A stretch of 64,000 nt of DNA from an uncultured Alphaproteobacteria bacterium (GTDB lineage Bacteria > Pseudomonadota > Alphaproteobacteria > Micavibrionales > UBA1664), in the NCBI GenBank assembly GCA_943789475.1, contig CALSUG010000008.1, positions 110,431 through 174,430 on the forward strand, read 5' to 3'. The number at the start of each line of letters is the position of its first letter. The stretch's first letter is position 1. The position numbers and the translations under genes were made by a program. The notes under the pieces were generated by a model, which was not told the DNA's origin, did not search any database, and saw nothing but the letters and a program-made list of their open reading frames with translations. Positions 45,178 through 48,314 of the stretch are shown here, one piece after another.

Positions 45178-46029
45178 TTATACTGCAAAGGCATATTTAA
45201 TTGGTTCGTGGAATTCGTATCCTTCGACACTAAAATCATCTGTTGTGACCCACGTTTCCAAATCTTCCAGTGATTTGATATCTGGATTGATGTGGAATGT
45301 TGGGGCTTCGAACGGTTCACGGGTTAGTTGGATGTCACGCATGGGCTCTAGCTGATCTTCATAAATATGCGCATTGATAATTTTATGATATGCCATGCCA
45401 GGTTTATGTCCTGTAATTTGTGCCATAATCGCAAGGAAGAAATAAACCTGTACCATATTAAAATTCAATCCCAATGGCACATCGCATGATCGTTGATAGC
45501 TGGTCAAATGAAGGGTGTCACCAATTAATGAAAATGTATGTGTGTGCATACATGGACGCAAACATCCCATGTGAAATTCACCTGGGTTATAAAAGGACAA
45601 AATTTCACCACGGTCATCGGTTCCATTGGTTAAATTGTCGACAATTTTTCGCAATTGATCGACATGACCACCATCTGGCTTTGTCCATGAGCGTCCCTGC
45701 ACACCATAAACACGACCCATGTCATCTTCACCCTTGCGGTGTTCATTATTAAGCCATACATCATTTTGATTGGCGTTGGCGTCCCACGTTTTACACCCGA
45801 TGTTACGAAATTGCTCGGCGTTATCATATCCACGGATATAGCCTAAAAATTCGGCTATGGCTGCCTTCCAATATGATTTACGTGTTGTGACCAATGGAAA
45901 TTCACCTGCACCAACATTATACTGTAAATCCGCATTGATAACGGTTAGGCAACGTTTTCCCGTACGTTTGTTTTCAATCCAATGACCATTATCAACGATA
46001 TTGCGACATAAATTTTCGTATTGGGACAT
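45178..46029 (-). CDS. thyA: thymidylate synthase (ThyA)
   Basis: Start set at [12 protein letters not shown] (ATG at 46029). The catalytic region is [11 protein letters not shown], and the C-terminal half has the typical ThyA block NAHIYEDQ. Confidence 0.9.
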
Positions 46030-46116
46030 TAGCGATGATTCCTTTTTATTTTTTATAAGCGTAAGAATGTTTGAAAAAATATACAAGAAAATGAGTCTTA
46101 ATATCCGCAACAATTA

Positions 46117-46145
46117 TTGTGTATGTACTTATGTTGCGTTATACT
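46117..46145 (+). promoter_or_regulatory. sigma-70-type promoter for the tmRNA gene (TTGTGT-17 nt-TATACT)
   Basis: Read directly: -35 at 46117-46122, a 17-nt spacer, -10 at 46140-46145. Confidence 0.5.
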
Positions 46146-46154
46146 GTGGTTACC

Positions 46155-46495
46155 AAGCAATTGGTTATGACGCTAAACGTTGTTGCGGAATAGGCGTCGT
46201 GGACCCGGGGGCAGTACCCGGCGACTCCACCAAAAGCACATATAATTTGTGTGTTTTTATGGGGTCGAAACAGGATCGACACGCGTAATAAAGGTAATTT
46301 TCGGCGTTCGGGCAGATACCCCCGTATACAGGATCATTTTTTATAGATGCAAACGATAACTTTGCTCCTATGACTGCTGCTAACGACAATGGCACTATTG
46401 CTGCTGTTGCCGCTTAAGCGAGTCGCATAAATTCCTAGGGGTTTGAGTCTCTAGGTGGGGTTGGGGAGAGACCTCGCAACAGAACTCCCCATTTT
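46155..46495 (+). ncRNA. ssrA: two-piece (circularly permuted) tmRNA: acceptor piece to CCA at 46232, intervening segment, coding piece from GGGGTCG at 46261
   Basis: GGGGUCG (46261-46267) pairs with CGACUCC (46222-46228), including the G3-U alanine identity pair, and is followed by ACCA. The T-arm is CCGGG-GGCAGUA-CCCGG. The tag frame 46349-46417 encodes ANDNFAPMTAANDNGTIAAVAA plus a stop. A 3' hairpin GGGGAG...CTCCCC is followed by ATTTTCCTTTT. The 5' and 3' ends are approximate. Confidence 0.8.
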
Positions 46496-46526
46496 CCTTT
46501 TGTATAAATCGGGTACACTGTTTTTC

Positions 46527-48314
46527 ATGATGTTATCACATACATGGATTACCACGTTATTATGCGCCGCGCTGGGGTTGTTTTTGGTACAATTGCCCGA
46601 TTGGTCGTATATGGCTCATGGTGCAGGGTTTATTGTGTTATGGGTTATTTGTCTTTGTGGTGTATCACACAGTAAACATAATTTTTCTATCAATGAGTAT
46701 ACAGTTTTTGCATTCCTTTTCATCGGGATGTGCGTGTTATCGGTTGCGATGTCGAGCATAGCACATAGCAGCATATCTATATTGTCAACTTACCTCATTT
46801 TGCCAATAGTGATGATTTCTCTGAACGGAAGTATAAATCGTCGGTTTTTCTATAATACATTGCTAGCTTTAAGCGCTGGTTTAGGGGGGTATGCCCTGTA
46901 CCAATTCTACACGCAAACAGGACATTATAAAATTATAGCGAACGGTTCTTTTGCTAATCCAAACAGTTTGGCTGTCTTTTTGGGAGTAGGTTTCCTGATT
47001 GCATGGAATTTATTTTTAACGACTAAAAATAAAATTCAATTGTCATTATATGGTGTAATTACTATGCTGGTATGGGCAGGAATTGTTACAACATCTGCAC
47101 GTGGAGTGATGTTGGGATTGCCGATCGTGATCGCATTCGTATCGTTGATGTATATAAATTATATGCCAAAAAAAGAAATTTTACTAAAAGTAATGCTTCT
47201 TTCGATGGGGGGTGTGGCTATATTTTTATCCGTGAAAATGTTTGTATCAGCAGAAATGTTTTCTCAAACATTGAATATACATTCAGGATCCGCTGGACCA
47301 CGGTTTAATATTTGGCGCGGTGTTGTTGATGCAATTCAGTCTACCAATCCTGTTTTTGGTAATGGTATAGGAACGTTTAAGGACGTTTACACGCACTACC
47401 GCTTGCCAACGGATCCTGCTTCAGGATTACATGGTCACAATGATATTCTCCATTTGATACTGGAAATGGGATTGCTTGTCCTTATACCGTTCACCATTTT
47501 AGCATTTACCGTGGTAAAGAGTTTTGTCGTGGCAAGAGAAGAGAATAAATCACGATTATTATTGCCGCTCTCGTTGTTTGTTTTTATAGCGGGGTGCGCG
47601 ATGTTCACCACGGTTATTTTATTACCGTCATTATGGCTGATAACGGGCATCATATTGATCGATTATATGAAACATGATGGTGAAAATGCGGTGGTGAAAA
47701 AAACATATATGAACAAAATAGCGATAGTTTGTTTGATTGTTTTAATAGCGTTACAAGCGCAAAAAATTGTTGAAACGCGCACGATGATTGATTTGAAAAA
47801 TGCATCTAATCAATCGGATTTGAATGATTTTCGGGCGCAAATAAATAAGATGGATATGGTGTCGATGGGGTCGCATCCTGTCGTTCCTATATTTCAAGCG
47901 TCACTTTTGATGAGTTTATGGGATGCAAAAATGATTACCGCACCTCAATCGGATGTAGTGAGCGAATTGAATGGGTATTTAGATCAATCAAAATCCCTCA
48001 ATCCATGGAATGTTGAAACGTTATATTATCGCGGTCATGTTTTAAAACGCGAGGGTGATATTGCAGGGGCAACATCAGCATGGGAAAATGTTTTAAAAAT
48101 TGATCCATCATATGTGTCCGCACGCATTGATTTGGTAAATTACATGACACGTACAGAAGACGCGTACATTATTTTAAAATCGGGTTTGTATCTCAAATAC
48201 TGGAAACAAAATCCACAGAAATTATTTGGCATGATTATGGTCGAAGCTAAAAAACAAGGCGATACAGAAACATATGAGGATGCGGAAGAGCGTTTGAAAG
48301 AGCTCCTCCGTTAA
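46527..48314 (+). CDS. O-antigen ligase (Wzy_C) family membrane protein with a C-terminal TPR-like domain
   Basis: Start set at MMLSHTWITT (46527), because the upstream part of the track ORF overlaps the tmRNA. About 12 TM helices; the periplasmic loop has GIGTFKDVY...GLHGHNDILHLILEMGL. The soluble tail has TPR-like repeats. Confidence 0.72.
   Translation: MMLSHTWITTLLCAALGLFLVQLPDWSYMAHGAGFIVLWVICLCGVSHSKHNFSINEYTVFAFLFIGMCVLSVAMSSIAHSSISILSTYLILPIVMISLNGSINRRFFYNTLLALSAGLGGYALYQFYTQTGHYKIIANGSFANPNSLAVFLGVGFLIAWNLFLTTKNKIQLSLYGVITMLVWAGIVTTSARGVMLGLPIVIAFVSLMYINYMPKKEILLKVMLLSMGGVAIFLSVKMFVSAEMFSQTLNIHSGSAGPRFNIWRGVVDAIQSTNPVFGNGIGTFKDVYTHYRLPTDPASGLHGHNDILHLILEMGLLVLIPFTILAFTVVKSFVVAREENKSRLLLPLSLFVFIAGCAMFTTVILLPSLWLITGIILIDYMKHDGENAVVKKTYMNKIAIVCLIVLIALQAQKIVETRTMIDLKNASNQSDLNDFRAQINKMDMVSMGSHPVVPIFQASLLMSLWDAKMITAPQSDVVSELNGYLDQSKSLNPWNVETLYYRGHVLKREGDIAGATSAWENVLKIDPSYVSARIDLVNYMTRTEDAYIILKSGLYLKYWKQNPQKLFGMIMVEAKKQGDTETYEDAEERLKELLR

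What the first reader, a model, noticed from the sequence alone, without database searches (positions are those of the whole stretch)
46117..46500. Two-piece tmRNA whose tag template looks like a tandem duplication (ANDNFAPMTA + ANDNGTIAAVAA)
The gene is circularly permuted, as in Alphaproteobacteria. The acceptor piece ends in ...CGACUCCACCA (46222-46232). A 28-nt intervening segment follows, then a coding piece starting GGGGUCG (46261) that restores the acceptor stem with the G-U alanine determinant. The tag ORF (46349-46417) encodes 22 residues, clearly longer than the roughly 12-14 residue ANDNFAEEFAVAA-type tags I know from this class. It contains the ANDN start twice, as if the template had been duplicated and the first copy had lost its hydrophobic AA end. 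The T-loop (GGCAGUA) is also atypical. A longer tag could alter recognition by ClpXP/ClpAP/SspB-like adaptors.
Basis: partly seen in the sequence, partly recalled or inferred. Interest (0 to 1): 0.6.

Follow-up and report, generated by a model that had tools for sequence, protein, structure and literature searches.

The report
Two-piece tmRNA with doubled tag motif
This is a normal alphaproteobacterial two-piece ribosome-rescue RNA (tmRNA) whose 22-residue "destroy-me" tag carries the ANDN motif twice, and the doubling is an old, conserved trait of much of its Micavibrio-like order, not a quirk of this genome.

Summary
Window 46113-46493 (+) is a circularly permuted alpha-type tmRNA (Rfam RF01849, 237 bits).

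The tag frame 46349-46417 reads ANDNFAPMTAANDNGTIAAVAA. The covariance model, the conserved A-U-A-R-N-U context and the fixed GCA codon place the resume codon at the first ANDN. ARAGORN's shorter tag for this window is a heuristic tie.

TRF finds no nucleotide tandem repeat, so this is not a recent duplication, and it is not special to this genome:
- All six tmRNAs of the genus share the doubled tag, and their module-1 differences are all synonymous.
- At least 127 of 320 species of the order have a doubled NDN tag. It is almost universal in the largest family.
- The second motif is in frame in every case.
- A GyrB tree suggests the genus inherited the trait and its sister genera lost it.
- Outside the order it is rare: 0 of 398 evenly sampled class genomes. 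A second group of uncultured alphaproteobacteria also has it.

The second module has the length of a canonical tag. SspB-alpha, SmpB and ClpX are present. A second SspB-alpha docking site is the likeliest function, but this is untested. Interest is modest.

The parts
46113..46493 (+). Whole permuted ssrA (tmRNA) gene as matched by the alpha_tmRNA model. The first ~25-40 nt are probably promoter or leader rather than mature RNA.
   Evidence: RF01849, 237.3 bits, model 1-355. ARAGORN tmRNA* at 46137-46508.
46152..46232 (+). Acceptor piece (3' half of the tRNA-like domain). It holds a small hairpin at 46152-46165, the long-range helix strand, the T arm CCGGG/GGCAGUA/CCCGG at 46205-46221, the acceptor 3' strand CGACUCC at 46222-46228 and the encoded ACCA at 46229-46232. 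The 5' end is inferred, not mapped.
   Evidence: Structure line of the cmscan alignment; sequence.
46233..46260 (+). 28-nt intervening segment, presumed to be removed when the precursor is cut into two pieces.
   Evidence: It lies in the loop of the acceptor-stem pairing in the model. Its length varies among relatives, for example about 90 nt in G006. Removal is inferred by analogy with Caulobacter.
46261..46493 (+). Coding piece. It holds the 5' acceptor strand GGGGUCG (46261-46267, G3·U with U46226), a PK1-like region, the tag frame, downstream helices, and a terminal stem GGGGAG (46463-46468) / CUCCCC (46485-46490) followed by AUUUUCCUUUU.
   Evidence: The centroid fold shows the terminal stem. 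The simple terminator scan did not call it because the loop is too long.
46343..46348 (+). Resume-codon context AUAGAU, matching the A-U-A-R-N-U consensus at positions -6 to -1.
   Evidence: in 133 unique relatives' genes, -6 is A in 108, -5 is U in 122, -4 is A in 131, -3 is R in 131 and -1 is U in 128. This context is absent before the second ANDN. PMC3985003: positions -6 to +1 set the resume codon.
46349..46417 (+). Tag reading frame of 22 codons plus TAA: ANDNFAPMTAANDNGTIAAVAA.
   Evidence: ARAGORN reports the same long frame for the near-identical genes of G001-G004.
46349..46378 (+). Module 1, ANDNFAPMTA, with the first (distal) NDN motif at 46352-46360.
   Evidence: Within the genus, all differences in these 10 codons are synonymous: AAC/AAT twice and GCT/GCA/GCC.
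46379..46414 (+). Module 2, ANDNGTIAAVAA. It has the length of a full canonical tag, with the second (proximal) NDN at 46382-46390 and the C-terminal AVAA degron end.
   Evidence: There are 7-12 residues after the second NDN in 112 doubled tags. Most of the 21 single tags have a comparable 8-13 residues after their NDN (range 6-17).

Best explanation
**What it is.** The locus is a functional, circularly permuted two-piece tmRNA (ssrA) of a Micavibrio-like alphaproteobacterium.

**How it works.**
1. The precursor is cut at the encoded CCA (46232) and before GGGGUCG (46261). This step is inferred by homology.
2. The two pieces pair into an alanine-accepting tRNA-like domain with G3·U.
3. Together with SmpB it enters stalled ribosomes.
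4. Translation resumes at GCA 46349 and appends (A)ANDNFAPMTAANDNGTIAAVAA.
5. The C-terminal AVAA is the ClpX/ClpA-type degron end.

**The doubled motif.** The tag holds the alphaproteobacterial NDN motif twice. I recall this motif as the SspB-alpha adaptor determinant, but the source paper was not available here.
- The proximal copy sits at the canonical distance from the C-terminus.
- The distal copy is a 10-residue N-terminal module under purifying selection at the peptide level.

**Where it came from.** The doubling is not a recent event in this genome. It is an inherited trait of the clade that joins this genus with the two families where the doubled tag is the rule, and the sister genera have since lost it.

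**Likeliest function (least certain, about 0.35).** The distal module gives a second docking site or register for SspB-alpha, or for another tag reader. That would improve capture of tagged proteins before hand-off to ClpXP.
For: **Gene identity.**
- RF01849 at 237 bits and RF04321 at 141 bits; ARAGORN permuted tmRNA.
- SmpB at 190 bits and ClpX with its zinc N-domain.
- SspB at 152 bits. It is SspB-alpha type, closest to the PDB entries 2nys (an uncharacterised 'AGR_C_3712p' chain) and 2qas/2qaz (SspB protein), which I recall as Agrobacterium and Caulobacter. It carries a C-terminal VVSLDQFRKK tail.

**Resume codon at the first motif.**
- The covariance-model alignment places it there.
- The A-U-A-R-N-U context is conserved only upstream of the first motif.
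- The first Ala codon is GCA in 74 of 75 genes, while the second-site Ala is mostly GCT or GCC.
- ARAGORN itself picks the first site in four near-identical genus genes.

**Module 1 is translated.**
- The second AAYGAYAAY is in frame in all 103 order hits, although the gap was free to be any of 6-24 nt.
- It is in frame in 83 of 83 public tmRNA hits and in 112 of 112 unique frames.
- V8 and A9 are invariant in 75 genes, with 0.85 and 1.43 bits of variation at the third codon position.
- Genus-level changes in module 1 are all synonymous.

**Clade trait.**
- 102 of 320 species and 37 of 86 genera match the strict pattern.
- 25 of 29 further genomes of the largest family are doubled although they missed that pattern.
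- On the GyrB tree the doubled state is found in f5, f6 and this genus. The single-tag genera g2, g3 and f2 group as sister to this genus with moderate support (SH-aLRT 92-93). At least 4 changes are needed.

**Canonical geometry of module 2.** There are 7-12 residues after the second NDN, and most single tags have a comparable 8-13. In E. coli, SspB and ClpX contact one tag at the same time (PMC9963277).
Against: - No RNA or protein data.
- ARAGORN picks the second site for this window and for G006.
- SspB is equally present and equally conserved in single-tag and doubled-tag lineages. No alignment column tracks tag type, so nothing ties the adaptor specifically to the doubling.
- The spacing between the two NDN motifs varies from 7 to 12 residues. 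That argues against a rigid bivalent fit to an SspB dimer.
- The role of NDN as the SspB-alpha determinant is recalled from Lessner 2007 and Chien 2007, which were not available here.
- The GyrB tree is a single gene with midpoint rooting.
Confidence: 0.8

Rival explanations
1. Translation resumes at the second site (GCT 46376 or 46379) and gives a normal 12-13 residue tag, (A)ANDNGTIAAVAA. The first ANDN block would then be untranslated RNA upstream of the true frame.
For: ARAGORN reports AANDNGTIAAVAA for this window and the equivalent for G006. The second module alone is a perfect canonical tag.
Against: - The covariance model aligns the first site to the consensus resume site.
- The -6 to -1 context is conserved only before the first site.
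- An untranslated spacer would not keep its length a multiple of 3 in 103 of 103 hits and 83 of 83 hits.
- It would not stay free of stop codons, nor show variation confined to third codon positions around invariant V8 and A9.
- ARAGORN flips to the first site in four near-identical genes.
Confidence: 0.07
2. This is a recent tandem duplication of the tag template, peculiar to this genome or genus. It is neutral or mildly harmful, and the first copy is decaying.
For: The peptide looks like two tag heads in a row. A faint 12-nt echo, CTATGACTGCTG / CTATTGCTGCTG, lies 27 nt apart.
Against: - TRF finds no tandem repeat.
- The two ANDN blocks differ at synonymous sites.
- The same architecture occurs in all six genus tmRNAs and in at least 127 species of the order.
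- Module 1 is more conserved than the core of module 2 within the genus.
- The GyrB tree points to inheritance.
Confidence: 0.03
3. The doubled tag is real and translated, but the distal module is only a spacer. It would lengthen the tag, for example so that the degron clears the ribosome tunnel or folded stubs, or so that it reaches another protease such as Lon, ClpA or FtsH. Its NDN would be kept for RNA-level reasons at the resume site rather than for adaptor binding.
For: - The resume-site Ala codon is fixed as GCA and the first Asn codon is AAC in 64 of 75 genes, which suggests RNA-level constraint on the first codons.
- Spacing between the motifs is flexible, 7-12 residues.
- SspB shows no co-variation with tag type.
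Against: - The D3 and N4 codons of the first motif vary freely at synonymous sites (GAT 41 / GAC 34; AAC 52 / AAT 23) while the residues are invariant.
- V8 and A9 are invariant at the peptide level. A pure spacer would not need a fixed sequence.
Confidence: 0.25

Closest known systems
Caulobacter crescentus two-piece tmRNA (permuted ssrA; Rfam RF01849; Keiler, Shapiro and Williams 2000, as cited in PMC3985003) and its tag (A)ANDNFAEEFAVAA (tag sequence from memory)
   Same: The gene is permuted in the same way, with the CCA-ending acceptor piece first and the coding piece beginning GGGG.CG. It shares the G3·U pair, the GGCrGUA T-loop, a GCA AAC GAY AAY resume region and a hydrophobic-AA tag end. 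The whole covariance model matches at 237 bits.
   Different: The tag is 22 rather than about 13 residues. It contains a second in-frame ANDN, which appears as a 30-nt insertion relative to the model.
SspB-alpha / ClpXP delivery of ssrA-tagged proteins (Lessner 2007 and Chien 2007, cited in PMC8138137 and PMC9963277; PDB 2qas/2qaz)
   Same: The genome encodes an SspB-alpha ortholog (E = 9e-31 to 2qas) with an XB-like tail, plus ClpX with its zinc N-domain. The proximal NDN-to-C-terminus distance equals that of single tags.
   Different: There are two candidate adaptor motifs per tag. No experiment on such a tag was found in the searchable literature.
Doubled-ANDN tags noted by earlier agents of this scan in other uncultured alphaproteobacteria (e1-2228615, e1-2164639, e1-5243156)
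   Same: The architecture is the same: ANDN twice, in frame, conserved across a lineage. I independently saw such tags outside the order, for example ANDNVALVAANDNNVVAARLAA and ANDNFAVAANDNFAVEYAAAA.
   Different: Those are other lineages. On a GyrB tree the non-order genomes group outside this order, with weak deep support. The period there is often 7-9 residues, against 10 here.

Membership tests
Alphaproteobacterial two-piece tmRNA (Rfam RF01849 alpha_tmRNA) | Covariance-model score above the curated gathering threshold over the full model | tested here: met
   237.3 bits against 50, model positions 1-355, E = 1.4e-67.
Alphaproteobacterial two-piece tmRNA (Rfam RF01849 alpha_tmRNA) | Circular permutation: T arm, acceptor 3' strand and CCA lie upstream of the acceptor 5' strand and the tag frame | tested here: met
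   CGACUCC-ACCA at 46222-46232 lies upstream of GGGGUCG at 46261-46267. ARAGORN flags the gene as permuted. RF04321 tmRNA_permuted scores 140.7 bits.
Alphaproteobacterial two-piece tmRNA (Rfam RF01849 alpha_tmRNA) | Seven-pair acceptor stem with the G3·U alanine identity pair | tested here: met
   GGGGUCG pairs with CGACUCC. The third pair is G46263·U46226 (structure line).
Alphaproteobacterial two-piece tmRNA (Rfam RF01849 alpha_tmRNA) | Tag frame starting at a conserved resume context and ending in hydrophobic-Ala-Ala plus a stop codon | tested here: met
   AUAGAU|GCA AAC GAU AAC ... GUU GCC GCU UAA.
Alphaproteobacterial two-piece tmRNA (Rfam RF01849 alpha_tmRNA) | SmpB partner encoded in the same genome | tested here: met
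   PF01668 at 190.3 bits, G000:C3:68434-68865.
Alphaproteobacterial two-piece tmRNA (Rfam RF01849 alpha_tmRNA) | Precursor actually processed into two RNA pieces; tagging activity | not testable with these tools
No expression data were available.
SspB-alpha-assisted ssrA degron (Caulobacter type) | NDN motif near the tag N-terminus plus a C-terminal xAA | tested here: met
   NDN occurs twice (residues 2-4 and 12-14) and the tag ends in AVAA. That NDN is the SspB-alpha determinant is recalled from the literature and was not verified here.
SspB-alpha-assisted ssrA degron (Caulobacter type) | SspB-alpha adaptor, and ClpX with an N-terminal zinc domain, encoded in the genome | tested here: met
   PF04386 at 151.8 bits. 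Closest structures are 2nys and 2qas/2qaz. PF06689 at 76.3 bits in a 435-aa frame.
SspB-alpha-assisted ssrA degron (Caulobacter type) | Physical binding of SspB-alpha to the tag and stimulated ClpXP degradation | not testable with these tools
   This needs biochemistry.

The most novel reading that the evidence does not exclude
The doubled NDN tag is a selected two-site adaptor degron. The proximal NDN would hand the tag to ClpX at the canonical distance. The distal NDN, 7-12 residues upstream, would bind a second SspB-alpha subunit or dimer, or hold the adaptor while ClpX engages. That would change the capture affinity or the protease choice for rescued proteins. The design has been kept for family-level time spans in Micavibrio-like bacteria, and it arose or persisted separately in at least one other group of uncultured alphaproteobacteria.
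Probability: 0.3. Interest if true: 0.55.

Novelty: new variant of a known kind. Interest (0 to 1): 0.33.

Why it matters
The gene itself is ordinary, and the practical lesson is about annotation. ARAGORN flips between a 13-residue and a 22-residue tag on near-identical genes. Tag predictions for this clade should therefore be anchored on the conserved resume context.

The biological point is modest but testable. Nature has kept two copies of the presumed adaptor-binding motif on one degradation tag across more than a hundred species. How the distance and the number of adaptor sites on a degron affect delivery to AAA+ proteases has been studied with engineered tags. This clade offers a natural, conserved two-site version together with its own SspB-alpha and ClpX. 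I found no description of it in the searchable literature. The public tmRNA database probably already holds such sequences; I did not check it.

Tried and rejected
- **Lessner 2007.** PMC1797230 is not held and Chien 2007 is not in the library. The NDN-to-SspB-alpha link therefore rests on memory plus citing reviews.
- **Fold of the coding piece.** z = 0.31, no better than shuffles, and no special structure in the inserted 30 nt.
- **Promoter and terminator scan.** Nothing was called at the gene's ends.
- **Nucleotide-level duplication.** TRF returned 0 rows. The repeat finder found only a 12-nt, 83% echo.
- **SspB alignment of 29 relatives.** I inspected it by eye for columns tracking single versus doubled tags and found none. 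Differences follow phylogeny.
- **Class-wide pattern hit.** The only hit outside the order (G671, L151) proved to be an acidic protein-coding stretch, not a tmRNA.
- **First literature search on 'ANDN'.** It returned only noise.
- **Kinship of the non-order doubled-tag genomes.** The tool does not report it. A GyrB tree places them outside the order, but with weak deep support and two junk rows. Independent origin is therefore left open.

Full report
**1. The observation**

- T arm CCGGG / GGCAGUA / CCCGG at 46205-46221.
- Acceptor 3' strand CGACUCC plus ACCA at 46222-46232.
- A 28-nt intervening segment at 46233-46260.
- The 5' acceptor strand GGGGUCG at 46261-46267. It pairs with CGACUCC over seven pairs, and the third pair is G·U.
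- A frame from GCA 46349 to TAA 46415-46417 that reads ANDNFAPMTAANDNGTIAAVAA.

Rfam's alpha_tmRNA model matches 46113-46493 over its full length at 237.3 bits (gathering score 50). The merged tmRNA_permuted model gives 140.7 bits. ARAGORN calls a permuted tmRNA at 46137-46508.

The genome also encodes the partner proteins:
- SmpB, 190 bits.
- ClpX with its zinc-binding N-domain.
- An SspB of the alpha type. Its closest solved structures are 2nys and 2qas/2qaz, and it ends in VVSLDQFRKK.

**2. Which codon is the resume codon**

The two detectors disagree. The covariance model aligns the first GCAAACGAUAAC (46349) to the consensus GCaAACGAcAAc and treats 46369-46399 as an insertion. ARAGORN reports AANDNGTIAAVAA, which starts at 46376. 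Four lines of evidence favour the first site.

1. *Upstream context.* In 133 unique tmRNA genes of relatives, the six bases before the first motif are A-U-A-R-N-U. A is at -6 in 108, U at -5 in 122, A at -4 in 131, R at -3 in 131 and U at -1 in 128. The bases before the second motif are simply the codons of ...V-A and lack this signature. Positions -6 to +1 are what set the resume codon through SmpB (PMC3985003).
2. *Codon choice.* The first Ala codon is GCA in 74 of 75 genes of the main length class. The Ala before the second NDN is mostly GCT or GCC.
3. *Tool behaviour.* On four near-identical genes of the same genus, ARAGORN itself reports the long tag ANDNFAPMTAANDNG.... Its choice in this window is a heuristic tie.
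4. *Coding behaviour of the spacer.* The stretch between the two motifs behaves as coding sequence (section 3).

**3. Is module 1 translated and constrained**

I scanned with GCAAACGAYAAY-N{6,24}-GCNNNNAAYGAYAAY, which leaves the gap free to take any length.
- All 103 hits in the order are a multiple of three long: 33, 36, 39, 42, 45 or 48 nt. The reversed control pattern has no hit.
- In the public genome collection, 83 of the hits lie in a tmRNA context, and all 83 are in frame and free of stop codons.
- Over 133 unique frames, 112 carry a second NDN, and all 112 are in frame.

In the commonest class (75 genes, ANDNxxΦVAxNDN), V8 and A9 are invariant. Their third codon positions carry 0.85 and 1.43 bits of variation. 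D3 is split GAT 41 / GAC 34.

Within this genus, the 10 codons of module 1 differ only synonymously: AAC/AAT twice, and GCT/GCA/GCC. The core of module 2 changes residues: T/D, I/V and A/F/I. Module 1 is therefore read in this frame and is under purifying selection on the peptide.

**4. Not a recent duplication**

At the nucleotide level there is no tandem repeat. TRF returns nothing, and the repeat finder returns one 12-nt, 83% echo at 27-nt spacing. The two ANDN blocks share 9 of 12 bases.

Read as A-[NDNFAPMTAA]-[NDNGTIAAVAA], both units end in xAA.

**5. How common it is**

Records of the same genus are labelled Micavibrio sp. (L046, L047, L064).

*Within the order:*
- All six tmRNAs found in the genus carry the doubled tag.
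- Of 37 relatives with a tmRNA, 14 have a doubled tag and 16 have tags of 20 or more residues.
- Across all 320 species-level genomes of the order, 102 (37 of 86 genera) match the strict pattern.
- That figure is a large underestimate. I took 30 genomes of the largest family, one per genus, that had missed the pattern. 25 of them have a doubled NDN anyway, for example ANDNFVVANDNSRLVAIAA and ANDNSQFVAANDNFVGDVRIAA.
  - 3 have a degenerate second motif (NDD, NEN, NDS).
  - 1 has a single tag.
  - 1 was only a gene fragment.

*Outside the order:* 401 genomes drawn evenly across the class gave only one hit outside the order, under both a strict and a loose pattern. That hit is a protein-coding acidic stretch, not a tmRNA. 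The count is therefore 0 of 398.

*A second assemblage:* the public scan also found doubled tags in uncultured alphaproteobacteria labelled Rickettsiales or Azospirillum MAGs, such as ANDNVALVAANDNNVVAARLAA and ANDNFAVAANDNFAVEYAAAA. On a GyrB tree these fall outside the order, but deep support is weak. Whether they represent an independent origin stays open. Earlier agents of this scan reported similar doubled tags in other lineages. I treat those notes as leads only.

**6. History within the order**

The GyrB tree comes in two versions: 36 genomes, and 63 genomes with class outgroups.
- The order is recovered as one clade (SH-aLRT 98).
- Inside it, a clade with support 99 joins families f5, f6, f1 and f2.
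- The doubled state is found in f5, f6 and this genus (f1 g1).
- In the 36-genome tree, the single-tag genera g2, g3 and f2 group as sister to this genus with moderate support (SH-aLRT 92-93).
- The minimum is four changes.

The simplest reading is that this genus inherited the doubled tag and its nearest genera collapsed it. Their tags (ANDNFAPATALAA, ANDNYAPVALAA, ANDNFATPVAMAA) resemble module 1 plus an AA end. Forms such as ANDNIAPMAVAANDNF... and ANDNFAPVAVAANDN... occur in f5. This rests on a single-gene tree with midpoint rooting.

**7. What the doubled motif may do**

*Shown:*
- Module 2 has the length of a complete canonical tag. There are 7-12 residues after the second NDN, and most single tags have a comparable 8-13 (range 6-17).
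- Module 1 adds 7-12 residues (10 here) that carry a second NDN followed by a conserved hydrophobic-V-A-A.
- SspB-alpha, ClpX and SmpB are present.

*Inferred:*
- In E. coli, SspB and ClpX touch the same tag at once (PMC9963277), so distance to the C-terminus matters.
- The proximal NDN is at the canonical distance and is the likely hand-off site.
- The distal NDN is then an extra docking site or register for SspB-alpha, or for another reader.

*Against a rigid bivalent fit:*
- The spacing between motifs varies.
- SspB is present and equally conserved in single-tag lineages, with no column tracking tag type.

A plain spacer role is the main rival, but it does not explain why the sequence of module 1 is fixed. 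I put the two-site adaptor reading at about 0.3-0.35.

**8. Comparison and novelty**

The gene is a full member of the alpha two-piece tmRNA family. All sequence-level defining features are met. Processing and activity were not testable.

The tag differs from the Caulobacter type by one extra in-frame module. I found no mention of a doubled NDN tag in the searchable literature, including the tmRNA database papers. The 2025 database paper gives 10 residues as the commonest tag length (PMC11915505).

It is best filed as a new, clade-wide variant of a known kind, of modest interest. The finding as written, an oddity of this one gene, is explained as the norm of its clade.

**9. Limits**

- The role of NDN as the SspB-alpha determinant is recalled from papers that could not be opened.

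Noticed in passing
window 46137-46508; loci L010, L012, L013, L025, L028, L029: ARAGORN gives the 13-residue tag AANDNG... for this window and for G006. It gives the 22-residue tag for four near-identical genes of the same genus. Automated tag calls in this clade are unstable.
   Followed up: yes
relatives G016-G039; own genome G000:C3:201797-202234 versus window: In families f2-f8 of the order, sspB lies on the same strand within about 0.1-3.5 kb downstream of ssrA. Examples: G022 tmRNA 263184-263609 with sspB 263748-264215; G027, G021, G033, G016, G025, G031, G028, G037, G023. In this family (f1), including this genome, the two genes sit on different contigs or far apart.
   Followed up: partly
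L028 (G006), L027 (G015), L196, L204, L210, L211: The intervening segment between the CCA end and the GGGG start varies greatly among relatives. It is 28 nt here and about 90 nt in G006. In some genomes the whole gene is 500 nt or more. The cause of the extra length in those genes was not examined.
   Followed up: no
window 46455-48314 (+): The mechanical ORF for the downstream 619-aa membrane protein starts at a GTG inside the tmRNA 3' end. The real start is probably the ATG pair near 46527-46532 (MMLSHTW...). The protein's function was not examined.
   Followed up: no
G013 (C172 and C57), G234 (C69 and C160): Two assemblies of the order each hold two different tmRNA genes. G013 has ANDNEMALAA and ANDNYAPVALAA. 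G234 has ANDNFANTVVAGNDN... and ANDNEATVAANDN.... This probably reflects mixed bins rather than true paralogs.
   Followed up: no
loci L036, L045, L050, L051, L067, L075, L076, L081, L087, L091, L097, L099, L100, L106, L117, L120, L148, L149: A second assemblage of uncultured alphaproteobacteria, with records labelled Rickettsiales or Azospirillum MAGs, has doubled tags of its own types: ANDNVALVAANDN[NT]VVAARLAA and ANDNFAVAANDNFAV.... In a GyrB tree they fall outside this order. 16 of the 19 genomes searched with the SspB model also encode SspB. That set comprised 16 genomes from this assemblage, two in-order controls and G671.
   Followed up: partly
window 45178-46113 (-): The upstream divergent gene looks like thymidylate synthase by its sequence, but this was not tested. 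Its mechanical TTG start (MLRILRLIF...) reaches into the tmRNA promoter region. The true start is probably the internal ATG (MSQYENL...).
   Followed up: no
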